This document shows positions 15,192-60,288 of a stretch of 64,000 bases of DNA, in pieces. The notes under the pieces are model-generated. The model saw nothing but the letters and a program-made list of their open reading frames with translations. It was not told the origin of the DNA and ran no database searches. The position numbers and the translations under genes were made by a program. Each line of letters opens with the position of its first letter. Within the stretch, counting starts at the first letter, position 1. Location: contig CAIOGI010000009.1 of NCBI GenBank assembly GCA_903857825.1, positions 7,203 through 71,202 on the forward strand, given 5' to 3'. Source of the DNA: Candidatus Tayloriibacteriota bacterium (GTDB lineage: Bacteria; Patescibacteriota; Minisyncoccia; Phycocordibacterales; PALSA-1337).

Positions 15192-15947
15192 TTAATAATT
15201 TGGGTCAGCGGCATTTGCTGCTTTTCTATAATTACAATGATCACAATCCTGAGCTGCAATTGGCATTTTTCCATCAAGACATTTTTTGATATCGAACAAA
15301 GATTTTTCAACCCATGTACTGTCACCAGTATAGGGTAAAATATCTATATCAAAATCTATTTTTGCGTCAAAGGCTTCGCGGTCTGTCTTACCGTTGCAAT
15401 ACACGAAATATCCTGTATTTGAAACTTTGAATCCTGTTTGGCGTAATAGCCACTGATACATTTCCATTTGACGTTTATAACCCATCTGCCATTCTGCATC
15501 GAGAGTCACTTTAGCTGGCTTACTAGTCGCTTTATAGTCTACAACCACAATCTCACCAGTTTTATCTACCCATAGGTCATCTACAGCTCCTGTCATTATA
15601 AAATTCGTTGGCTTATGATGGTATTGAACCCCTTTGAAGTTCTCTCGCCATTCATTGATCTTTTCATGCTTAAAGGGGACCATATCGAGGCTATAAGCCT
15701 TCATTAGGGGGTGTGGAGTCCCCTTCGCTCGATGTATGTCAAACTCCTTCTTTAGAAGAGTATCTACAGCCGAATTTATGGCAAATGGAAATGGTGGAAT
15801 CTGGCCTACCCCAAGTCGACGATCGATATAAAAACATTTGGGGCATTTTGTGTATAGTTCGATTTTTGATCGAGACAATTTGAAAGGCTCCGTGCTTGCC
15901 GGATCATAGAGGTTTCGTATTCTGTTCGCCTTATAATATTCTGACAT
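15192..15947 (-). CDS. Cas4-like PD-(D/E)XK nuclease (DUF83, RecB family) with a four-Cys cluster
   Basis: CPKC at the N-terminus and CDHC at the C-terminus. GAVDDLWVD, VVVDYKAT (D-x-K) and the QxxxY motif KRQMEMYQWLL. Confidence 0.6.
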   Translation of the reverse strand: MSEYYKANRIRNLYDPASTEPFKLSRSKIELYTKCPKCFYIDRRLGVGQIPPFPFAINSAVDTLLKKEFDIHRAKGTPHPLMKAYSLDMVPFKHEKINEWRENFKGVQYHHKPTNFIMTGAVDDLWVDKTGEIVVVDYKATSKPAKVTLDAEWQMGYKRQMEMYQWLLRQTGFKVSNTGYFVYCNGKTDREAFDAKIDFDIDILPYTGDSTWVEKSLFDIKKCLDGKMPIAAQDCDHCNYRKAANAADPNY

Positions 15948-15950
15948 GTT

Positions 15951-16847
15951 TTATAGGCTATACTGGTAAGATTGGCTGATATAGTCAAGTGCTGCAACTA
16001 TTTCTTCAGGTTTCTCTATTCTAAACTTCGTTTCTCCGGTTCCCCAGTGTCCTTTTTGACTTACATCATGTAATTCGATTCCATTCCTCTTGATCCTGTC
16101 TACAGGCATCGTTATGTGAATCCATAATCCTTTTGCCTGAGGAATAATCTCGCAAAAAATATTTTCAATTTTATAACTGATATATAGTTTGGTAAACTTT
16201 TCCTCTATGTTGGTATCGAGTTCAAAAATCTTCTCTTTTAGTTGATCATAAAGTTCTCGACTTTCTTTCCAACTATCACGAAATAAATGATTTATCGTGT
16301 ATTCTTTTCCGTATTCCCGGACAGGTTTTTCATCGTCTTCACTTACTAGTTTCTTTGATCCACTTAGTTTGAATCCCTTCTGAAAGTTTTCTACATCAAC
16401 CGAAAGAAGGTCGTCATAGAGACGATATTTTAGAAGCTCGATTGTGAACGGCAAAAACTTCACAAGTCCAAGATCAAATTTGTTATAACTTTCAGCTACA
16501 CAAATGACTCGAGGAGATGACCAATCAACTATTATCTCCAGTTTTTTAGCTTGAACAAGTTTTTCAAACTTCTCCTTATGATCAAGAAGCCATTCAAGAT
16601 ACCATGTAGCTTGATTTATTACAGAATCATTCTGAGTACGCTTATATTCAATTATAACGGGAGATCCATTTTGATCAATTCCGATTGTATCGATTCTACC
16701 TTCATTGGTAGTGAACTCAGTATCAAGAAAATAAATACCTAGAATCTCCTTCAGGTTTTCCTCTATTAATCGTTGAATGTCTCGTTCAACAACGCTTCGC
16801 TTTTCGATCTTCACCGCTTTATTATTTTGTATTTTGAATAGAGGCAT
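15951..16847 (-). CDS. NucS/DUF91-like PD-(D/E)XK nuclease domain protein with C-terminal extension
   Basis: GRIDTIGIDQNGSPVIIEYKRTQNDSVINQATWYLEWL parallels the NucS motif G.IDILA.D..G.LVVIELKR...Q..RY..W. Confidence 0.45.
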   Translation of the reverse strand: MPLFKIQNNKAVKIEKRSVVERDIQRLIEENLKEILGIYFLDTEFTTNEGRIDTIGIDQNGSPVIIEYKRTQNDSVINQATWYLEWLLDHKEKFEKLVQAKKLEIIVDWSSPRVICVAESYNKFDLGLVKFLPFTIELLKYRLYDDLLSVDVENFQKGFKLSGSKKLVSEDDEKPVREYGKEYTINHLFRDSWKESRELYDQLKEKIFELDTNIEEKFTKLYISYKIENIFCEIIPQAKGLWIHITMPVDRIKRNGIELHDVSQKGHWGTGETKFRIEKPEEIVAALDYISQSYQYSL

Positions 16848-16940: not shown

Positions 16941-18323
16941 ATGAAAAATATCTGGCTTCTCACCGAAGAACGACCTAAAAACGATGTCATTCTCACTATT
17001 TTGAATAAGGTCGGGACAGACAATAATTTTAAAGTTCAATCTGAGGGTGCGAAGGTTATACCTATTATGAAAGATGGTTGTTTTACTTTTTTATACAAAG
17101 TTGAAGATGTTAAATGCGAAGGATTTGAAAATATATTTATTAAAATAGCCAGTGGTAATTCTAGCTTCGTCGATTTTTTGATATTTCTCCAAGAAGCAGA
17201 GCCTGATCAAAGTTCAAAACCTCTCTATGCAATAGAAGAAACGAAAACCGATGATTCAGAATCTCGTAACACAGGAGTCTACCAACGCTGTAGTAAGTTT
17301 GTATATGTAGAATTCTATTATCCGGGCATTAGGAAAATAATGCTCTACAGTTTGCAGATCAAGCAAAAAATAAAACCAACAGTAACCAATATTTTCGGCA
17401 CACGAATGCTACGAACGATAGGCGTTGAAATTCTTGGCAAAACATTTGATGAGGAAGTCATGAGACCATTCACGAGCCTCGATGAGCTAGTTCAAGCAAA
17501 GAGTGCTATGAGAATGCCCCCGACCGGTAATGTCCCTATTCAAATCGAGGTGCACCCTGACAAAATCACAGTATCAGGAAGGCTTTTTAAAGCTGGTGGG
17601 ATAGGCCATGACCCTAATATCGGCGCACTCACCATCATAGCTCTCTGTATTAGACGTTGGGAAAAAGAAAAGCCAATCATCATAACCAAACATGGTTTAT
17701 CTCAAGAACATCTTGGAAGAGGAAACAAATTTATTCAGATCGCCAACAGGCTCAATATCGGGCTTGATGGTTTAAATGTCCAAATTGCAACTCAACATGA
17801 GCTTTATTGGCATTATGAAATGTCCCAAGAAAAGCTAGCCACTATATTTCTCCACGTCCTATTACTCAATTACACGAAAGCAGAAGTCATCTATGCCAAC
17901 CATGGAGGCACGGAGAGAGGATACTTTATGCACAAAGTTCAGGGACCGATCGTGATTGAGAAATATCAAGAAGGAAAACGAGCCGCATATAAGCTTGGCG
18001 ACAAATCTCTGATTATTCACTTACCAGACATGATCATTTTTGATACTGCTAGAAATCAGATCATCAATGTCGAGGGTAAAAAGTATAGTACACGAGCAGC
18101 TGGTATCGAGGAGTTGGCAAACTATTCCTACATTGAAGAAAAAGTGATTCTACCTTCACATAGTCCTTCGGCTTTTATCAGGACCGTTGTTGTTTTTGGT
18201 AGCAAAGAAACTGAACTTAAGGAAAAAGAGATCGGATTTATGCTAAATGAAAATGGAGATCTTGTGTTGGGTAAATATGCTCCTGAAATATTTAAAGAAG
18301 TAGTATCAAAAGCTACAGCCTAG
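16941..18323 (+). CDS. candidate type II restriction endonuclease (context only)
   Basis: 460-aa ORF convergent with the adjacent adenine MTase and overlapping it tail-to-tail by 4 nt. No conserved motif; this is the usual R-M layout. Confidence 0.3.
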   Translation: MKNIWLLTEERPKNDVILTILNKVGTDNNFKVQSEGAKVIPIMKDGCFTFLYKVEDVKCEGFENIFIKIASGNSSFVDFLIFLQEAEPDQSSKPLYAIEETKTDDSESRNTGVYQRCSKFVYVEFYYPGIRKIMLYSLQIKQKIKPTVTNIFGTRMLRTIGVEILGKTFDEEVMRPFTSLDELVQAKSAMRMPPTGNVPIQIEVHPDKITVSGRLFKAGGIGHDPNIGALTIIALCIRRWEKEKPIIITKHGLSQEHLGRGNKFIQIANRLNIGLDGLNVQIATQHELYWHYEMSQEKLATIFLHVLLLNYTKAEVIYANHGGTERGYFMHKVQGPIVIEKYQEGKRAAYKLGDKSLIIHLPDMIIFDTARNQIINVEGKKYSTRAAGIEELANYSYIEEKVILPSHSPSAFIRTVVVFGSKETELKEKEIGFMLNENGDLVLGKYAPEIFKEVVSKATA

Positions 18324-19441
18324 GCCTCTTGTAACGCCAAGTCTTTTTTCTTTAGCTTCCCCACCCTTTTATTTCCAACCTGAGAATTCTCTAGAATATA
18401 TAATTGCTCCTGAATAGTTTTCATATGCTTCGAGTCTCCGTTGCTATTGCTTTTAAACCTGAGGTAATCAATATTCTGCAATGTTACTCGTCCATACTTC
18501 TCTAGAGTTGCAATGATATCTTTCTCAGGCATTGCACCTTCAGAATTGTAGCTCAAAATCAGATAGCGGTATTTAGCTGTTTTTGCCACCTTATCTAAGG
18601 CAAGAAGTGCTGTATTTTTATTACAAAAATCAGATTTTTGATTCTTGTAATCTCTCATTCCTGTTACACCCTTAATCGCAGGACTGTCGTATCGTGCGAT
18701 TGTTTCCAAGAGATGATAGTTCGGTGCATATTGCCGATGGTTATAAGGAGGATCCATATAGAGTATGTCTACATCTAAATCTTCCACTAGATCCATACTG
18801 TTCCTGTTGAACACAGTATGCTCTTTGTCGCCTGAATAAAAACTCATTTCTTTAATTTGAAGCGGCTTTAACGCTCTAGGGTCATACTCCTTAAGAAAAG
18901 CTGCATAGACACCTGAAATATTTGCATAGAAAGGTACACTTTCAATAAGAGAAGCGAGAAGTACAAAATACTCATTTTCATTTATTAATTTTTCTTTCCA
19001 CCATTCTTCTATCAAAAGTCTTATAGCATCAATCTTCTTACCATTCTCGGGTAGAAAGAATTTTCTTTTATGTTCCTGATCCTTAGTTCCTTCATCAGTA
19101 TAATTTTTGTAAATAAAACCTTTAACACCTTTCAATTCGTTCAAATAACTTCTTACAGAATCAAAAGGAGAAGCAAAAAGAATGTTCGATGAGACATCAA
19201 GTGTTTTCAGCAGTTTTTTAAACTCAGGTTCACCATTATTTTCTATATAAGCTTTTTGGAGTACATAAGAAAAATAGAGTAAATCAGAAGACACAATCTC
19301 AAATCCTTTTTCCTTAAAGAATCTTCCAACATTTGAAGTACCAGAAAAGAAATCGCAAAAAACCCCATCTTTTACGCCAGTCGAGGTTACGGCTTGGTAG
19401 ATTCGATCCAGCAATTTTTCTTTGTTGCCAATAAATCTCAT
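18320..19441 (-). CDS. N6-adenine DNA methyltransferase, D12/alpha class
   Basis: Motif X RFIGNKEKLL, motif I FFSGTSNVG, motif IV YMDPPY. Confidence 0.75.
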   Translation of the reverse strand: MRFIGNKEKLLDRIYQAVTSTGVKDGVFCDFFSGTSNVGRFFKEKGFEIVSSDLLYFSYVLQKAYIENNGEPEFKKLLKTLDVSSNILFASPFDSVRSYLNELKGVKGFIYKNYTDEGTKDQEHKRKFFLPENGKKIDAIRLLIEEWWKEKLINENEYFVLLASLIESVPFYANISGVYAAFLKEYDPRALKPLQIKEMSFYSGDKEHTVFNRNSMDLVEDLDVDILYMDPPYNHRQYAPNYHLLETIARYDSPAIKGVTGMRDYKNQKSDFCNKNTALLALDKVAKTAKYRYLILSYNSEGAMPEKDIIATLEKYGRVTLQNIDYLRFKSNSNGDSKHMKTIQEQLYILENSQVGNKRVGKLKKKDLALQEA

Positions 19442-19442
19442 A

Positions 19443-21008
19443 TTAATAGTTTGTGATTAACAGCTCTGCCACCTTGCCGCGCTGATCTTTTTTACTATTC
19501 AAAGTTCGACCAGAGAAAACTTGCTGAATTTTATAACCCTTATAAAGATCCCGAATGAATTCACAATCTGAATTGGAGAGCATCACTTTACAGCCCTTCT
19601 TATCCAAATGATCAATTTTTTCCTTCAGTCTTATTTGATCCTCTTTATGGAATTTCTCTTTAGTATAACGAGTGAAATCAGAATAAACTGATATAGGATA
19701 GTAAGGAGGATCGAGATAAACAAAATCATTAGTGCCAGCATCATTTACCGCCATCTCAAAATCTACTTCTTTTATTGCCACATTTTTTAGAACCGCACTA
19801 GCACTTCTGATTGTATGTTCATCACATATAAGCCGATTGAGAGAGCTGCCTATTGGTACATTAAACTGCCCTTTTTGATTGACCCTATAGATACCATTAA
19901 AACAGGTCTGATTTAGATAAATCATTCTTGCAGCAATTTCAGCTGAATTCAATTTTTGGAAAATATCAATTTCCCGATCTAAATTTCTTACTAAAGGATA
20001 TAATTCTTTTGAGTGTTTTGATCGTAACTCCTTAAGCAGTCTGATCACTTCTTCTGGATTGTCTCGTATACCCTCATACGCCCTGATCAATTCAGTATTG
20101 TTGTCGGCCAGAATCGCCTTTTGAGGTTGGAGATGGAAAAACATTGCCCCTCCACCGAGAAAAGGTTCGTAGTAAGAATTGAATTTTTTAGGTAGAAACT
20201 GTTCGTATTGAGAAATCATCCCTCTCTTGCCTCCTACCCATTGAAGAAAAGGTGTTGCCTTCTCATCTGGTGAAGAATTTGTCTCTCTTTTTACATTTGC
20301 AGTCAGAGGCATGCGTTTCAATAATTTCGTCAATTCGCTTTCATGCGTGTGTACTGATTCAAGCTCTCTAATAATTTTTACAACTACGCCTCTGATCTCA
20401 ACTTCAGTTCTAAAAAAAGGAAGTAGGTTTTGATTTGCCGGTTGCAAACGGAATCTCCCCTTTTCCTTGTAAATCTTTTTTAAGGTTGCCTGATTATCAT
20501 CAATAATTGCGACTACAGTTTGACCATCTTCTGCACTTTGCTGTTCTCGTATAACGACAATATCACCATCAAATATTCCATCATCGATCATGCTGCTTCC
20601 AGCCACCTTTAAAGCGTAGTGCTTTCCTGCATTGGGTATTTCACCCTGAGACAGTACCAACATCTCACCGTGCCTTTCTACTGCTTCAATAGGCAATCCG
20701 GCAGCAATAGTACCTAGAATTGGGACATGAACACTGCCAAGAGCCTTTTTAGGGGCAACAGCTCGAGGTTGATTGATCTCTTTATAAATCAAGCCAGCTT
20801 CCTCAAGTTTTTTTACATGATGATGAGCTGTAGATACCGAAGAAAGTTTTAAATGTCCTTTTATTTCTTCAAGAGAAGGGGCGAACCCATGCTTTTTACT
20901 ATAGGTAGTAAGAAAATCTAATGTCTGTTTTTGTCTTTTAGTTATCATATTACACTTTCGATTTATTTTCGATATCATAATTATAGCGCCACCTAAATTA
21001 AGAAGCAA
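19443..21008 (-). CDS. LexA-like autocleavable repressor (wHTH + S24 peptidase) fused to a Dam-type GATC adenine methyltransferase
   Basis: N-terminal half: MITKRQKQTLDFL..., cleavage site IAAGLP, GSSM (Ser nucleophile), ATLKK (Lys). C-terminal half: FLQWVGGK, FLGGGAMFF, FVYLDPPY, collinear with E. coli Dam. The likely true start is the ATG at 20948 (MITKRQ). Confidence 0.75.
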   Translation of the reverse strand: MLLNLGGAIIMISKINRKCNMITKRQKQTLDFLTTYSKKHGFAPSLEEIKGHLKLSSVSTAHHHVKKLEEAGLIYKEINQPRAVAPKKALGSVHVPILGTIAAGLPIEAVERHGEMLVLSQGEIPNAGKHYALKVAGSSMIDDGIFDGDIVVIREQQSAEDGQTVVAIIDDNQATLKKIYKEKGRFRLQPANQNLLPFFRTEVEIRGVVVKIIRELESVHTHESELTKLLKRMPLTANVKRETNSSPDEKATPFLQWVGGKRGMISQYEQFLPKKFNSYYEPFLGGGAMFFHLQPQKAILADNNTELIRAYEGIRDNPEEVIRLLKELRSKHSKELYPLVRNLDREIDIFQKLNSAEIAARMIYLNQTCFNGIYRVNQKGQFNVPIGSSLNRLICDEHTIRSASAVLKNVAIKEVDFEMAVNDAGTNDFVYLDPPYYPISVYSDFTRYTKEKFHKEDQIRLKEKIDHLDKKGCKVMLSNSDCEFIRDLYKGYKIQQVFSGRTLNSKKDQRGKVAELLITNY

Positions 21009-21130
21009 GTGTGGTGATCAACACCTCAATATGTCAAAGGAAGAAAAAATTAATATTAGAATGATGCAAAAAAACAAAAACGAACAGAGGAAGCTGTAGA
21101 GATACGCAAACGAGGATTTGGTCAGCAATT

Positions 21131-39967: not shown

Positions 39968-41095
39968 CTATTTTCGTTTGACCCTTGTAAATACTAGCTT
40001 TTCCACGATCGCCTGAACGACGTTTACCGTTACCGCATTACCCAAGCACTTGTACCTTTGAGTGTCGCTTGCACCGAGAGTCCACTCGTCAGGAAAGCCT
40101 TGTAACCGTTCACACTCCATAGGCGTAAGGCGACGAATTTTCTGTAGCCCTTTGACGGCATACAGTCCCGTCTTCGCCCCAAGGCCTCCTGCTTGGCTTG
40201 CAAGAGTCGTGGCTATACCTCTTGCATCATATATTCGACTTCCTTGTGGAAAGTTACGACTAAGTTGTTTCCCATCATCAAGCCATTTCTTATTCTTCTC
40301 GCTCATGACAGCTCCGATATATTTCAAATCTTTATGTGCCGGTCTTTTACCAACATAAGTTCCGTTCGAGTCTGCGGTAACACGTGTCGTGATGGTTGGT
40401 AGGATAATATCCTCGCTTGCGTTTTGGGAGAGAGGAAATACTTCCGGTCTGGGCGTGCCTCTAAGATGTCCGACAATGAAGACTCGCTCTCTGTTCTGGG
40501 GTACTCCGAAATTCTTGCTGTTAAGCACCTGCCATTGGAGGTCATACCCAAGACCATCCAGTGTGCGGAGGATAATGCCGAAGGTACGCCCTTTCTCGTG
40601 AGAGAGAAGCCCTTTAACATTCTCAAGGAGTAGAAGCCGTGGTCTTTTGGTAGCGATAATGCGAGCAATCTCAAAGAACAATGTCCCTCGAGTGTCTTCA
40701 AAGCCCTTTCTCTTGCCGGCAATAGAGAAAGATTGGCAAGGAAAACCTCCAATGAGTAGGTCGAAATCGGGTAGATCTCTTGATTTGATTTTTCTGATGT
40801 CTCCATAATTTGTGTGCTTGAAATATTTTTCATAAATTTTGATTGCGTGTTTGTCGATCTCGGAGTAACCCACGCAAGTAAGCGATTCTTGTCGTAAGCC
40901 GTCGCAGTGATGGTGTTTGCAAGATAGTCCTCCCTCGGTACCAACTTCTTTAGACTTCTTGTATCCTTTACCACCCCGAGCCTTCGAAGTCGCTTTGCCT
41001 CCTCTGTCCTTCTTTCTGTTAACTGTTTCCACATATGCGTTGTGTATGCCGAGTTCGAAGCCTCCAATTCCCGAAAAGAGACTGAAGTACCTCAT
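39968..41095 (-). CDS. DNA cytosine-5 methyltransferase
   Basis: FSGIGG (I), GGFPCQSFS (IV), LLLENV (VI), QNRERVFIVG (VIII). A ~50-aa Lys/Gly-rich insertion with CKHHHCDG follows motif I. Confidence 0.9.
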   Translation of the reverse strand: MRYFSLFSGIGGFELGIHNAYVETVNRKKDRGGKATSKARGGKGYKKSKEVGTEGGLSCKHHHCDGLRQESLTCVGYSEIDKHAIKIYEKYFKHTNYGDIRKIKSRDLPDFDLLIGGFPCQSFSIAGKRKGFEDTRGTLFFEIARIIATKRPRLLLLENVKGLLSHEKGRTFGIILRTLDGLGYDLQWQVLNSKNFGVPQNRERVFIVGHLRGTPRPEVFPLSQNASEDIILPTITTRVTADSNGTYVGKRPAHKDLKYIGAVMSEKNKKWLDDGKQLSRNFPQGSRIYDARGIATTLASQAGGLGAKTGLYAVKGLQKIRRLTPMECERLQGFPDEWTLGASDTQRYKCLGNAVTVNVVQAIVEKLVFTRVKRK

Positions 41096-42402
41096 TGCTT
41101 TATTTTATTAATTCTCTCCCATCTATTGCGTATAACATCGCAGAACTTAGGATCAAGCTCGATCATGTATGCCCGTCGGCCGACCTTTTCCGCTGCAGCC
41201 ATTGTGCTGCCGGACCCTCCGAATGGATCGAGAACGATGTCATTTCTTTTTGTGGAATTGCGAAGCGCTCTCATTGCAAGCCAGTCTGGTTTCTCTGTCG
41301 GATGGAGATAATGAGCTACTGCCTTTCTTGGCATTTCCCAGACGTCGTATTCATTGTCGCCGTAAAATTTATGAGTGCCTTCTTTCCAGCCGTAAATGAT
41401 GCTTTGTGCCGTTTTTGGATCAGGCTTTTTTGCACGAGCTATCCATTCATGCTTGTAGCGATAATCATTCCATCCCATACTCGGCACGTTCTTCACCCAG
41501 ATGATCACTCCGGAATGCTGGAAACCATTTTGAAACATGCTTTGGAGAAATTGTGGATACGAGCTCCAACCTGAGCAGATGTAGAAGGAAGATCCCTCTT
41601 TAGTGTTGAAGAACATCTCATGGAAGGCTCCGTCTATAAATGTCTTGAAATCGGCGTCGTTCATATTGTCGTTTTTGATTGATTCATTGCCTTCGTCTTT
41701 TAATTTCTCGCCACGACTTTTATAGTTGACGTTGTACGGTGGATCAGTGAAGACCATATCAGCTTTTTCCTTTCCGAGAAGTTTTCTATACGTCTCTGGG
41801 TCGGTCGAATCTCCGCAAATCAACCTATGTGACCCGAGCTCATAAATTTCGCCAAGCTTTGAGCGTGGTTCCTTTTCAGATTCATCGCCTTCACCCTCAT
41901 CTTCCTCCTCGTCCTCAAGAGTCTGATCGAGTATCCGACTAATCTCGTCGTCTCGAAATCCTGAGGCGGGAATTGATGGAGATTCTTTGAGATCAACAAT
42001 TATTTCAAAGAGCTTTTTTTCATCCCACTTTCCCTTTATTTTATTTAGTGCAAGATTGAGGAGCTTTTCTTCTGCAAGGTGCAAATCCACGAGATTTGCG
42101 GGAATATAGGCCACTCCATCCTTGGTTTCTATGCCCTTTATAGCCTCACTTTGGGCCACAAGCCCCTCTACGGCGGTAGTTCTTTGGTGACCTCCTACCA
42201 GGACCCATTTTCGGTCGCCACATTCGTCACAGGTGTGAGTGTTTACCACAACAGACTCCACAAAGCCGAAGGTCTTGATACTTGTCTTCAAGGCCGCCAT
42301 TTCGATCTCTGGCATGATGCGGGGATTGTATTCAGCGCGCCTCAGGTCGGTTATTTTAATTTTGGTCGCTTCCATAGGTTTCTGCGAATTTGATTCGCGC
42401 AT
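41092..42402 (-). CDS. ParB-like nuclease domain fused to a beta-class N6A/N4C DNA methyltransferase
   Basis: N-terminus VLVGGHQR (ParBc). MVFTDPPYN (motif IV) precedes LDPFGGSGST (motif I), which is the beta-class order. Confidence 0.8.
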   Translation of the reverse strand: MRESNSQKPMEATKIKITDLRRAEYNPRIMPEIEMAALKTSIKTFGFVESVVVNTHTCDECGDRKWVLVGGHQRTTAVEGLVAQSEAIKGIETKDGVAYIPANLVDLHLAEEKLLNLALNKIKGKWDEKKLFEIIVDLKESPSIPASGFRDDEISRILDQTLEDEEEDEGEGDESEKEPRSKLGEIYELGSHRLICGDSTDPETYRKLLGKEKADMVFTDPPYNVNYKSRGEKLKDEGNESIKNDNMNDADFKTFIDGAFHEMFFNTKEGSSFYICSGWSSYPQFLQSMFQNGFQHSGVIIWVKNVPSMGWNDYRYKHEWIARAKKPDPKTAQSIIYGWKEGTHKFYGDNEYDVWEMPRKAVAHYLHPTEKPDWLAMRALRNSTKRNDIVLDPFGGSGSTMAAAEKVGRRAYMIELDPKFCDVIRNRWERINKIKQ

Positions 42403-60070: not shown

Positions 60071-60288
60071 AATATGATCACCTATTTCTCCACAGTCAAA
60101 GTATTTTCATTTTATGTATCAACGCTACTCGAATGCAATAACTTATTTTGCGAAATTGCTGCGGGACTTGGAATCGGACCAAGATTTTCTCCTTCAAAGG
60201 GAGACGTACTACCATTATACGATCCCGCAATTTTCTAAAATACCCTTAATCCAACCTGCAATCTTGCGATTCAAATCAGTACTTGCAA

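What the first reader, a model, noticed from the sequence alone, without database searches (positions are those of the whole stretch)
19443..21030. LexA-type autocleaving repressor fused in frame to a Dam GATC methyltransferase, with a GATC-containing palindrome upstream
One 521-aa ORF combines a LexA-like wHTH, an Ala-Gly cleavage site (IAAGLP), and an S24 Ser/Lys dyad (GSSM...ATLKK) with a full Dam domain (FLQWVGGK, FLGGGA, FVYLDPPY). In LexA, RecA-stimulated self-cleavage separates the DNA-binding domain from the C-terminal domain. Here that would release an S24-Dam moiety from the operator-bound HTH, coupling the SOS/induction signal to adenine methylation. An imperfect palindrome, gtggtGATCaacac (21011-21024), lies ~65 nt upstream of the probable start (ATG at 20948). 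The protein's own promoter or operator would therefore carry its methylation target. I do not recall a described LexA-Dam fusion.
Basis: partly seen in the sequence, partly recalled or inferred. Interest (0 to 1): 0.7.

Follow-up and report, generated by a model that had tools for sequence, protein, structure and literature searches.

The report
LexA repressor fused to restriction-modification methyltransferase
The gene is a real and widely conserved fusion of a complete LexA-type self-cleaving repressor to the first of two methyltransferases of a restriction-modification system in candidate-phyla-radiation bacteria, which suggests that these bacteria use a DNA-damage sensor to control their restriction systems.

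Summary
ORF 19443..20948(-) encodes 501 aa with a LexA wHTH, an S24 autopeptidase (Ala83-Gly84, Ser119, Lys157) and a D12/Dam-family methyltransferase. It is not an assembly error: about 57 protein clusters share the architecture and all these residues are invariant.

Two parts of the interpretation fail.

1. The GATC palindrome at 21011-21024 is chance. It is absent from homologous promoters. The conserved element is a tandem direct repeat TTTC[G/T]-N6-TTTC[G/T] (window 20956-20971), found in 27 of 31 promoters.

2. The enzyme is probably not a GATC Dam. It is M1 of a conserved three-gene type IIS-like cassette: M1, a second D12 methyltransferase (18320..19441), and a convergent BsmI-like endonuclease (16941..18323). 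GGATG/CATCC is the most depleted 5-mer in cassette-bearing DNA, and a sister cassette carries a true FokI endonuclease.

The LexA module belongs to a clade dedicated to restriction-modification (R-M) systems. It occurs stand-alone directly upstream of type II methyltransferases or fused to four methyltransferase classes (44 of 44 long relatives), always with the same operator.

Best reading: an autorepressor of the methyltransferase operon that DNA damage inactivates by RecA-stimulated self-cleavage. Cleavage and binding are inferred, not shown. I found no published description.

The parts
19443..20948 (-). LexA-M1 fusion CDS, 501 aa (stop codon 19443-19445)
   Evidence: AF2 model shows three domains, mean pLDDT 79
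20760..20945 (-). LexA winged-helix DNA-binding domain (aa 2-63)
   Evidence: Pfam PF01726, E 3e-13; best solved relative is T. maritima LexA 3k2z, E 6e-28
20697..20702 (-). Ala83-Gly84 predicted self-cleavage site (codons gcc gga)
   Evidence: invariant in 39 D12 fusions and in 44 LexA-methyltransferase fusions of other classes
20379..20723 (-). Peptidase S24 domain (aa 76-190), with Ser119 (20592-20594) and Lys157 (20478-20480)
   Evidence: Pfam PF00717, E 3e-26; Ser119 and Lys157 invariant
19446..20312 (-). M1 methyltransferase module (aa 213-501). It includes the PxTxNxxR N-terminal extension, FLQWVGGK, the FxGxG motif and DPPY (19701-19712)
   Evidence: PF02086, E 1e-55; DpnM 2dpm, E 2e-72; PxTxNxxR is shared with HTH_26-M1 relatives
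20956..20971 (+). Predicted LexA operator: tandem direct repeat TTTCGATTTATTTTCG (11-bp period), lying between the -10 hexamer and the start codon
   Evidence: present in 27 of 31 non-redundant promoters against 0.1 expected; only 2 strict matches elsewhere in 1.4 Mb, one of them at another LexA-M1 promoter; the only exact match in the window; same repeat (TTTC[G/T] or TTCGG core; degenerate in L166) at 7 related LexA genes of other R-M systems
20980..21008 (-). Probable promoter: -35 TTGCTT (21003-21008), 17-nt spacer, -10 TATAAT (20980-20985)
   Evidence: read from the sequence and positionally homologous to TTGACT-16/17-TATAAT in L086, L087 and L112. The consensus scan did not list it because the -35 matches only 3 of 6
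18320..19441 (-). M2, a second D12-class adenine methyltransferase (373 aa). Its start codon lies 1 nt after the M1 stop
   Evidence: PF02086, E 1e-36; PADLOC MTase_II PDLC03287, E 3e-94; follows M1 in every locus
16941..18323 (+). Convergent restriction endonuclease R (460 aa). Its 3' end overlaps the 3' end of M2 by 4 nt
21011..21024 (.). It is not part of the system
   Evidence: not conserved, chance-level frequency

Best explanation
The ORF is the modification-and-control subunit of a mobile type IIS-like R-M cassette of Patescibacteria (CPR).

Shown:
- The cassette is M1 (LexA-fused D12 methyltransferase), then M2 (a second D12 methyltransferase), then a convergent two-domain PD-(D/E)xK endonuclease.
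- The cassette is conserved as a unit in different genomic contexts.
- The M1 promoter carries a conserved TTTC[G/T]-N6-TTTC[G/T] tandem repeat at or overlapping the core promoter or transcription start.
- The same LexA clade and the same repeat are found with many other type II R-M systems, either as a separate gene directly upstream of the methyltransferase or fused to N6_N4, gamma-class N6, C5 or D12 methyltransferases.

Inferred:
1. The LexA wHTH, dimerised through the S24 domain, binds the repeat and autorepresses the M1-M2 operon. This holds methyltransferase at a low set point, as the N-terminal HTH of M.SsoII-type methyltransferases does.
2. In a naive cell the promoter is open, so methylation is established first.
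3. DNA damage, including double-strand breaks made by the system's own endonuclease on under-methylated DNA, generates RecA-ssDNA filaments. These stimulate self-cleavage at Ala83-Gly84 by Ser119/Lys157.
4. The wHTH is thereby cut off from the dimeric S24-methyltransferase fragment, the operator is vacated, and M1-M2 transcription rises. That transcription runs head-on into the terminator-less convergent R gene.
5. The balance shifts toward modification. This would be a type II equivalent of restriction alleviation.

The likely target is the asymmetric site GGATG/CATCC, with one methyltransferase per strand, not GATC.
For: - Domains and thresholds.
- About 57 clusters share the three-domain architecture. 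Ala83, Gly84, Ser119, Lys157, the FxGxG glycines and DPPY are invariant.
- The M1-M2-R cassette is present in every locus with enough flank, next to a prophage here and next to CBASS genes in L003/L004.
- Operator: 27 of 31 promoters against 0.1 expected by shuffling, with only 2 strict matches elsewhere in 1.4 Mb. It lies after the -10 or overlaps the -35/-10 region.
- The closest stand-alone LexA relatives (58-71% identity) sit directly upstream of type II methyltransferase plus endonuclease pairs in L164-L167 and carry the same repeat, degenerate in L166.
- All 44 long relatives scanned are LexA plus S24 plus a DNA methyltransferase of four classes, with the cleavage site and dyad invariant.
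- CATCC/GGATG is the most depleted 5-mer in 416 kb of cassette-bearing DNA (O/E 0.64, z -8.2), against O/E 1.00 and 0.97 in controls.
- Sister cassette L173 pairs M1+M2 (about 66% identity) with a FokI endonuclease and an HTH_26 in place of LexA.
- Methyltransferases that regulate their R-M system through a fused N-terminal DNA-binding domain are established (PMC2760811, PMC3978073).
- LexA proteins that recognise direct repeats are documented, and the Patescibacteria study is cited among those cases (PMC7739468).
Against: - No experiment. DNA binding, cleavage, RecA dependence and methylation specificity are all inferred.
- No LexA operator was found upstream of R, so control of restriction would be indirect. 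Convergent interference is only suggested by the 4-nt overlap and the absence of a terminator between the genes.
- A conserved Ser/Lys dyad does not prove RecA dependence.
- I could not test whether the same genomes have a separate housekeeping LexA, or whether the repeat is also the host SOS box. The one study of the Patescibacteria SOS regulon (PMID 28618189) is not held.
- The GGATG assignment rests on k-mer depletion and on a sister system, not on methylome data.
Confidence: 0.6

Rival explanations
1. An orphan LexA-Dam(GATC) enzyme couples the SOS signal to genome-wide GATC methylation, and its own operator carries its GATC target as a feedback element.
For: - The fusion and the catalytic residues are real.
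- The methyltransferase domain passes the dam subfamily model, and its best solved relative is the GATC enzyme DpnM.
- A GATC palindrome does exist at 21011-21024.
Against: - The palindrome is absent from 30 of 31 homologous promoters and is at chance frequency.
- The gene is always followed by M2 and a convergent endonuclease.
- GATC is not avoided, whereas CATCC/GGATG is.
- A sister cassette carries FokI.
- The Lys9 equivalent is an invariant Gln.
Confidence: 0.07
2. The fusion is the cell's housekeeping SOS repressor. It represses the chromosomal SOS regulon and happens to be fused to, or encoded next to, a methyltransferase. The TTTCG repeat would then be the general Patescibacteria SOS box.
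For: - NCBIfam scores it above the equivalog cut-off for lexA, and NCBI names homologues 'transcriptional repressor LexA'.
- Patescibacteria LexA is cited among LexA proteins that evolved direct-repeat motifs (PMC7739468).
- One clade member, L168/L169, lies near dnaA/dnaN with a partner that is not a recognised methyltransferase.
- No other LexA gene is present in the 64-kb window.
Against: - The cassette moves between unrelated contexts and defence islands.
- The repeat occurs in the window only at the M1 promoter and almost nowhere else in 1.4 Mb of fetched loci.
- The clade is overwhelmingly linked to methyltransferases of four classes.
- Sister cassettes replace LexA by an Xre-type HTH, which is the behaviour of a system-specific controller.
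Confidence: 0.15
3. The LexA module serves only as a DNA-binding and dimerisation module, giving constitutive autorepression like M.SsoII. Self-cleavage would be non-functional or not driven by RecA, for example slow autodegradation that sets protein half-life.
For: - Sister cassettes do the same job with a plain HTH_26 and no protease, so a damage signal is not required for the cassette to function.
- RecA dependence cannot be read from sequence.
Against: - Ala-Gly, Ser119 and Lys157 are invariant across 39 plus 44 divergent fusions, down to about 30% overall identity.
- That invariance argues for selection on the cleavage chemistry itself, not only on the fold.
Confidence: 0.15
4. Artefact: a frameshift, a chimeric assembly, or a read-through of two adjacent genes (lexA and M1) that are separate in reality.
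For: - Related systems do have lexA and the methyltransferase as separate adjacent genes.
- Some database entries list a 289-aa M1 alone.
Against: - The identical 501-aa product is on record in 47 index blocks, and 15 carrying contigs were read, from ENA and JGI samples.
- About 57 clusters at 54-96% identity keep one continuous frame.
- The '289-aa' entry P0060 is an annotation undercall of a continuous fusion ORF.
Confidence: 0.01

Closest known systems
M.SsoII / M.Ecl18kI / M.EcoRII-type methyltransferases with an N-terminal regulatory DNA-binding region (PMC3978073, PMC2760811)
   Same: A DNA-binding domain is fused to the N terminus of the R-M methyltransferase. A specific operator lies in the system's own promoter region. 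The methyltransferase concentration therefore feeds back on transcription.
   Different: Here the regulatory module is a complete roughly 200-aa LexA (wHTH plus S24 autopeptidase with an intact cleavage site), not a roughly 70-aa HTH. The repressor is therefore predicted to be destroyed by a signal. The operator is a direct repeat. R is convergent, not divergent, and has no copy of the operator.
LexA, the SOS repressor (TIGR00498; structures 3k2z, 1jhh)
   Same: The domain order, the Ala-Gly site, the Ser/Lys dyad and autoregulation through a site in its own promoter are shared. The score is above the equivalog cut-off.
   Different: This protein is fused to, or in sister systems encoded directly upstream of, a DNA methyltransferase of an R-M cassette. 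No SOS regulon is evident. It belongs to a clade whose nearest members are almost all methyltransferase-linked.
M.FokI (a two-domain D12 methyltransferase for GGATG/CATCC) and the FokI R-M system
   Same: There are two D12-class adenine methyltransferase modules. PADLOC profiles of 643-646 aa cover M1 and M2 as the two halves of one protein. Sister cassette L173 carries a true FokI endonuclease. GGATG/CATCC is depleted.
   Different: The two modules are separate genes and M1 carries LexA. The endonuclease in the window is not FokI-like in sequence: it has no Pfam hit and its fold is closest to BsmI. The domain-to-strand assignment of M.FokI is recalled from memory, not tested.
Dam / DpnM (GATC methyltransferases)
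   Same: They share the D12 fold and motifs. DpnM is the best solved relative (E 2e-72). The Arg124, Pro134 and Asn120 equivalents of EcoDam are conserved.
   Different: The protein is part of an R-M cassette with a second methyltransferase. The Lys9 equivalent is Gln. GATC is not depleted. The specificity is probably CATCC or GGATG.
C (controller) proteins of type II R-M systems, and RptR (PMC2175313, PMC12255303)
   Same: They are dedicated transcription factors that time and balance methyltransferase and endonuclease expression in mobile R-M systems.
   Different: C proteins are small Xre-type HTH activator-repressors, usually co-transcribed with R, and have no protease or signal input.
DNA-damage-induced restriction alleviation of type I systems (ClpXP degradation of HsdR; reviewed in PMC12707154)
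   Same: The predicted outcome is the same: restriction pressure on the host chromosome is relieved when DNA is damaged or repaired.
   Different: The mechanism is entirely different. Here it would be transcriptional derepression of methyltransferases through repressor self-cleavage, in a type II system.

Membership tests
LexA family (SOS-type autocleaving repressor) | N-terminal LexA winged-helix DNA-binding domain | tested here: met
   PF01726, aa 2-63, 49.6 bits against a cut-off of 23.7
LexA family (SOS-type autocleaving repressor) | C-terminal S24 peptidase domain with a Ser/Lys dyad and an Ala-Gly scissile bond | tested here: met
   PF00717, aa 76-190. Ala83, Gly84, Ser119 and Lys157 are invariant in 39 and in 44 homologues
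LexA family (SOS-type autocleaving repressor) | Full-length match to the curated equivalog model | tested here: met
   TIGR00498, 159.4 bits against a cut-off of 110.95, model positions 4-202 of 203
LexA family (SOS-type autocleaving repressor) | Autoregulation through a specific box in its own promoter | tested here: met
   Met only as sequence conservation. The TTTC[G/T]-N6-TTTC[G/T] repeat is in 27 of 31 promoters against 0.1 expected. Binding was not tested.
LexA family (SOS-type autocleaving repressor) | RecA*-stimulated self-cleavage | not testable with these tools
   Needs a biochemical assay
LexA family (SOS-type autocleaving repressor) | Controls a regulon of DNA-repair genes | tested here: inconclusive
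   There are no other operator copies in the 64-kb window, and 2 strict matches in 1.4 Mb of loci, one of them at another LexA-M1 promoter. No CPR recA promoter was available.
Dam family, GATC-specific | D12-class motifs (FxGxG, DPPY) and a match to the dam subfamily model | tested here: met
   PF02086, E 1e-55; TIGR00571, 267 bits against a cut-off of 115
Dam family, GATC-specific | Equivalog-level match to E. coli Dam | tested here: not met
   NF008152, 140 bits against a cut-off of 441
Dam family, GATC-specific | GATC as the target | tested here: not met
   Indirect evidence only. GATC O/E is 1.02 in the window and 0.90 in cassette loci, while CATCC/GGATG is the most depleted 5-mer. There is a FokI partner in L173. 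The Lys9 equivalent is Gln236. A methylome is needed for proof.
Type II(S) R-M system with two strand-specific methyltransferases (FokI-like) | Two adenine methyltransferases plus a cognate endonuclease, conserved as one cassette | tested here: met
   M1, M2 and R are present in all loci with enough flank. PADLOC assigns MTase_II and REase_II.
Type II(S) R-M system with two strand-specific methyltransferases (FokI-like) | Endonuclease with a PD-(D/E)xK restriction fold | tested here: met
Type II(S) R-M system with two strand-specific methyltransferases (FokI-like) | Asymmetric recognition site GGATG/CATCC | tested here: inconclusive
   Supported by depletion (z -8.2 against about 0 in controls) and by the FokI sister system. 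There is no cleavage or methylation assay.
Methyltransferases with a fused N-terminal regulatory DNA-binding domain (SsoII-like control) | DNA-binding domain N-terminal to the catalytic domain, with an operator in the R-M promoter region | tested here: met
   Domain order and the conserved operator at or overlapping the core promoter
Methyltransferases with a fused N-terminal regulatory DNA-binding domain (SsoII-like control) | The same operator also controls the endonuclease gene | tested here: not met
   No tandem repeat lies upstream of R in 39 non-redundant loci
C-protein controlled R-M | Small Xre-type HTH controller with C-boxes | tested here: not met
   The regulator is a LexA wHTH plus S24. 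Xre-type HTH_26 occurs only in sister cassettes.

The most novel reading that the evidence does not exclude
A whole clade of LexA repressors in candidate-phyla-radiation bacteria has been recruited as the controller of type II R-M systems. It occurs fused to, or encoded directly upstream of, methyltransferases of four unrelated classes, with a portable TTTCG-N6-TTTCG operator. Self-inflicted or external DNA damage, sensed through RecA, would cleave the repressor and boost modification. This would be the first RecA/SOS-type signal input into type II R-M control, and a built-in autoimmunity brake.
Probability: 0.45. Interest if true: 0.8.

Novelty: new variant of a known kind. Interest (0 to 1): 0.66.

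Why it matters
R-M systems are toxic to their own host if modification lags behind restriction. The known safeguards are C proteins, methyltransferase-fused HTH domains, antisense RNAs and, for type I systems only, damage-induced restriction alleviation.

A LexA-type self-cleaving repressor as the controller would give type II systems a direct DNA-damage input. That mechanism does not appear in a 2025 review of R-M biology (PMC12707154, no mention of LexA).

The module is abundant: about 57 D12 clusters, plus at least 44 clusters at 50% identity with other methyltransferase classes. It comes with a simple predicted operator, so it can be tested with a gel shift, a RecA cleavage assay and a reporter.

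It also matters for annotation. These proteins are currently named either 'LexA' or 'DNA adenine methylase', which misleads SOS-regulon reconstructions in CPR genomes. The 'Dam' label probably hides a GGATG/CATCC specificity.

Tried and rejected
- GATC palindrome as operator: rejected. It is not conserved and is at chance frequency.
- GATC specificity: disfavoured.
- LexA operator upstream of R: none found. A subset of loci shows only a single TTTCG half-site near the -10.
- Sequence search of R and M2 against the PDB: no hits.
- Pfam and NCBIfam on R: no family.
- 'Stand-alone 289-aa M1' as the unfused ancestor: rejected for P0060, which is an annotation undercall.
- Phage carriage: no LexA-fused copy in IMG/VR; only Dam domains at 48% identity or less.
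- Search for recA in the fetched loci, to test operator sharing with SOS genes: only one recA, in a non-CPR locus.
- Literature: six searches and four papers read found no description of LexA-methyltransferase fusions or of LexA-controlled R-M. The key Patescibacteria SOS paper (PMID 28618189) is not held, so prior mention there cannot be excluded.
- The consensus promoter scan did not list the promoter I propose, because its -35 matches only 3 of 6. The assignment rests on positional homology.
Full report
**1. Observation**

The ORF on the minus strand at 19443..21008 is real. Homologues are all about 500 aa and begin MITKRQKQ, so the start is ATG 20948, giving 501 aa.

Domain searches give three domains in one frame:
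- LexA_DNA_bind, aa 2-63
- Peptidase_S24, aa 76-190
- MethyltransfD12, aa 237-477

The curated lexA equivalog model (159 bits, cut-off 111) and the dam subfamily model (267 bits, cut-off 115) are both passed. The E. coli Dam equivalog is not (140 bits against 441).

The identical protein is on record in 47 index blocks, and 15 carrying contigs were read, from ENA and JGI samples. About 57 clusters at 54-96% identity have the same three Pfam domains. A frameshift or chimera is therefore excluded.

In an alignment of 39 members the following are invariant: Ala83-Gly84, Ser119, Lys157, the FxGxG glycines and DPPY. An AF2 model shows three separate domains (pLDDT 79).

**2. The upstream palindrome**

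GTGGTGATCAACAC is at 21011-21024, but it carries no signal:
- Palindromes of this quality occur 106 times in the window, about 0.25 per 150 nt.
- Only 1 of 31 non-redundant homologous promoters, the window's own, has a GATC-centred palindrome.
- Only 6 of 31 have any GATC.

What is conserved is a tandem direct repeat TTTC[G/T]-N6-TTTC[G/T] with an 11-bp period:
- It is present in 27 of 31 promoters, against 0.1 expected from shuffles.
- There are only two strict matches elsewhere in 1.4 Mb of fetched loci, and one of these lies upstream of another LexA-M1 gene.
- In the window it is TTTCGATTTATTTTCG at 20956-20971, the only exact match in 64 kb.
- It lies between a TATAAT at 20980-20985 and the start codon.
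- In other subclades it is in the opposite orientation and overlaps the -35/-10 region.

Either position suits a repressor.

**3. Genomic unit**

M1 is followed one nucleotide later by a second D12 methyltransferase, M2 (18320..19441). M2 is met head-on by a 460-aa ORF, R (16941..18323), whose end overlaps the end of M2 by 4 nt.

Evidence on R:
- It has no Pfam or NCBIfam family.
- It matches a PADLOC type II restriction-enzyme model at E 5e-59.

The M1-M2-R arrangement is present in every related locus with enough flank. Its surroundings differ:
- Here it lies between the tail and lysis end of a prophage and candidate defence genes (PDC-S18 and a Cas4-like nuclease).
- In L003/L004 it lies beside a CD-NTase and a patatin.

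It is therefore a mobile R-M cassette. No LexA-fused copy exists in IMG/VR viral contigs.

**4. Specificity**

Several lines argue against GATC.
- The closest solved relative of the methyltransferase domain is DpnM (E 2e-72), but the system has two methyltransferases and a monomeric-type IIS-like nuclease. That points to an asymmetric site.
- PADLOC profiles of 643-646 aa cover M1 and M2 as the two halves of single proteins.
- GATC is not avoided in the window (O/E 1.02).
- In 42 non-redundant cassette-bearing loci plus the window (416 kb), CATCC/GGATG is the single most depleted 5-mer (O/E 0.64, z -8.2).
- In 820 kb of loci without the cassette its O/E is 1.00, and 0.97 in the low-GC subset.
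- The adjacent prophage is the most depleted part of the window (O/E 0.64).
- In L173 the same M1 and M2 (about 66% identity) are followed by an endonuclease with all four FokI Pfam domains.
- The residue aligned with EcoDam Lys9 is an invariant Gln. From memory of the EcoDam structure papers, Lys9 reads the first G of GATC. The Arg124 and Pro134 equivalents are kept.

The most likely target is GGATG/CATCC, one strand per methyltransferase. This is an inference, not a measurement.

**5. The LexA module**

- Sister cassettes carry an Xre-type HTH_26 or HTH_17 in place of LexA, or possibly nothing, in front of the same methyltransferase module. That module includes the PxTxNxxR N-terminal extension. 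One '289-aa' stand-alone entry is only an annotation undercall.
- The nearest relatives of residues 1-198 (55-71% identity) are of two kinds: Patescibacteria LexA proteins of about 196-205 aa, and LexA fused to other methyltransferase families.
- Four stand-alone members sit directly upstream of type II methyltransferases with cognate endonucleases. These include HinfI-type and two PADLOC REase_II families. One lies beside SMODS/SLATT and GmrSD genes.
- Two further fused members were seen, one C5 and one N6_N4.
- One member, near dnaA/dnaN, has an unidentified 344-aa partner.
- All seven promoters carry an 11-bp-period repeat of the same family, with a TTTC[G/T] or TTCGG core; the copy in L166 is degenerate.
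- An exhaustive search of 1.84 billion representatives shows that the best-scoring relatives are mostly long proteins with LexA at the N terminus.
- All 44 long relatives scanned are LexA_DNA_bind plus Peptidase_S24 plus a DNA methyltransferase: N6_N4_Mtase 31, Eco57I 7, N6_Mtase 5, D12 4 and C5 2; the Eco57I and N6_Mtase matches overlap on some proteins. Ala83, Gly84, Ser119 and Lys157 are invariant in all of them.

This is a LexA clade dedicated to R-M systems, with a portable repressor-operator pair.

**6. Mechanism**

The architecture and the conservation are shown. The following steps are inferred.
- The wHTH, dimerised through S24, binds the repeat and autorepresses M1-M2. The logic is that of M.SsoII/Ecl18kI-type methyltransferases (PMC3978073, PMC2760811).
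- The strictly conserved cleavage chemistry implies that the repressor is meant to be destroyed.
- By analogy with LexA, RecA-ssDNA filaments would trigger cleavage at Ala83-Gly84. These filaments form after external damage or after self-restriction.
- Cleavage would detach the wHTH from the dimeric S24-methyltransferase fragment and derepress the methyltransferases.
- M1-M2 and R converge without a terminator, so increased methyltransferase transcription may also interfere with R.
- No operator lies upstream of R.
- The net effect would resemble the restriction alleviation known for type I systems (PMC12707154).

LexA proteins that bind direct repeats are documented. The Patescibacteria SOS study is cited among those cases (PMC7739468), but I could not read it.

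**7. Rivals**

- The orphan GATC-Dam model is contradicted by sections 2 to 4.
- A housekeeping-LexA reading cannot be excluded without whole genomes. It is disfavoured by the mobility of the cassette, by the restriction of the operator to R-M promoters in the sequence available, and by the replacement of LexA with an HTH in sister cassettes.
- A cleavage-independent role is disfavoured by the invariance of the dyad and scissile bond.
- An artefact is excluded.

**8. Novelty**

Six literature searches and four papers read found no description of LexA-methyltransferase fusions or of LexA-type control of R-M. One of those papers is a 2025 review of R-M biology with no mention of LexA.

The proteins are in public databases, labelled either 'LexA' or 'DNA adenine methylase'.

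I classify this as a new variant of a known kind: methyltransferase-borne R-M control, here with a signal-cleavable LexA module. It is experimentally untested.

Noticed in passing
L007, L013, L101, L107, L164, L166-L168, L170 promoters; L009-L011, L100, L101 upstream of R (not in the window's own subclade): A DnaA-box-like motif TGTGGATAA/TTATCCACA (at most 1 mismatch) lies within 200 nt upstream of 18 of 31 non-redundant LexA-M1 promoters (2.0 expected, maximum 7 in shuffles). It also lies upstream of related stand-alone R-M LexA genes and of some R genes. It could couple the system to DnaA and replication, or it could be a CPR promoter element.
   Followed up: partly
window 21339-46000 (minus strand): This is a prophage with higher GC (44-50% against about 35-38% in the flanks). 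It has a tail fibre, minor tail, major head, portal, large terminase and a Sak4-like protein. It carries two methyltransferases of its own (39968..41095, and 41092..42402 as a ParB-methyltransferase fusion). It is the part of the window most depleted in GGATG/CATCC (O/E 0.64).
   Followed up: partly
window 15951-16847(-), 15192-15947(-): A PADLOC candidate defence protein PDC-S18 (E 2e-83; Pfam DUF5655) and a Cas4-like PD-(D/E)xK protein sit next to the R gene. The R-M cassette therefore lies in a small defence island at the prophage border.
   Followed up: no
L173 (= L016 contig CAZJJZ010000007.1) 4001-7975: A sister cassette has HTH_26-M1 plus M2 followed by a co-directional true FokI endonuclease (four FokI Pfam domains) and then a serine recombinase. 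The same methyltransferase pair is combined with different nucleases and different N-terminal regulators.
   Followed up: partly
L172 3356-4867 (LQBG01000056.1): The NCBI entry of 289 aa ('hypothetical protein', P0060) starts at an internal Met of what is a continuous 500-aa LexA-M1 ORF. Some 'stand-alone' M1 entries in databases are undercalls.
   Followed up: yes
L168/L169 4001-5745: A member of the same LexA clade (242 aa as called; TTCGG-N6-TTCGG repeat and a perfect TGTGGATAA box upstream) lies beside dnaN/dnaA and DciA. Its overlapping 344-aa downstream gene has no Pfam or PADLOC match. It may be the chromosomal LexA, or a system with an unrecognised partner.
   Followed up: partly
window, whole: Several short sites are strongly under-represented: CCCGG (O/E 0.34), GGCC (0.60), CGCG (0.63), ACGT (0.64) and CCGG (0.69). 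This suggests pressure from other R-M systems in this lineage.
   Followed up: no
window 18320-18323: M2 and R converge and their 3' ends overlap by 4 nt, with no terminator-like structure between them. Their transcripts must collide or overlap as antisense.
   Followed up: partly
window 60158-60229(-): This is tRNA-Gln(TTG), the only tRNA in the window. It is far from the prophage ends, so it is not an obvious attachment site.
   Followed up: no
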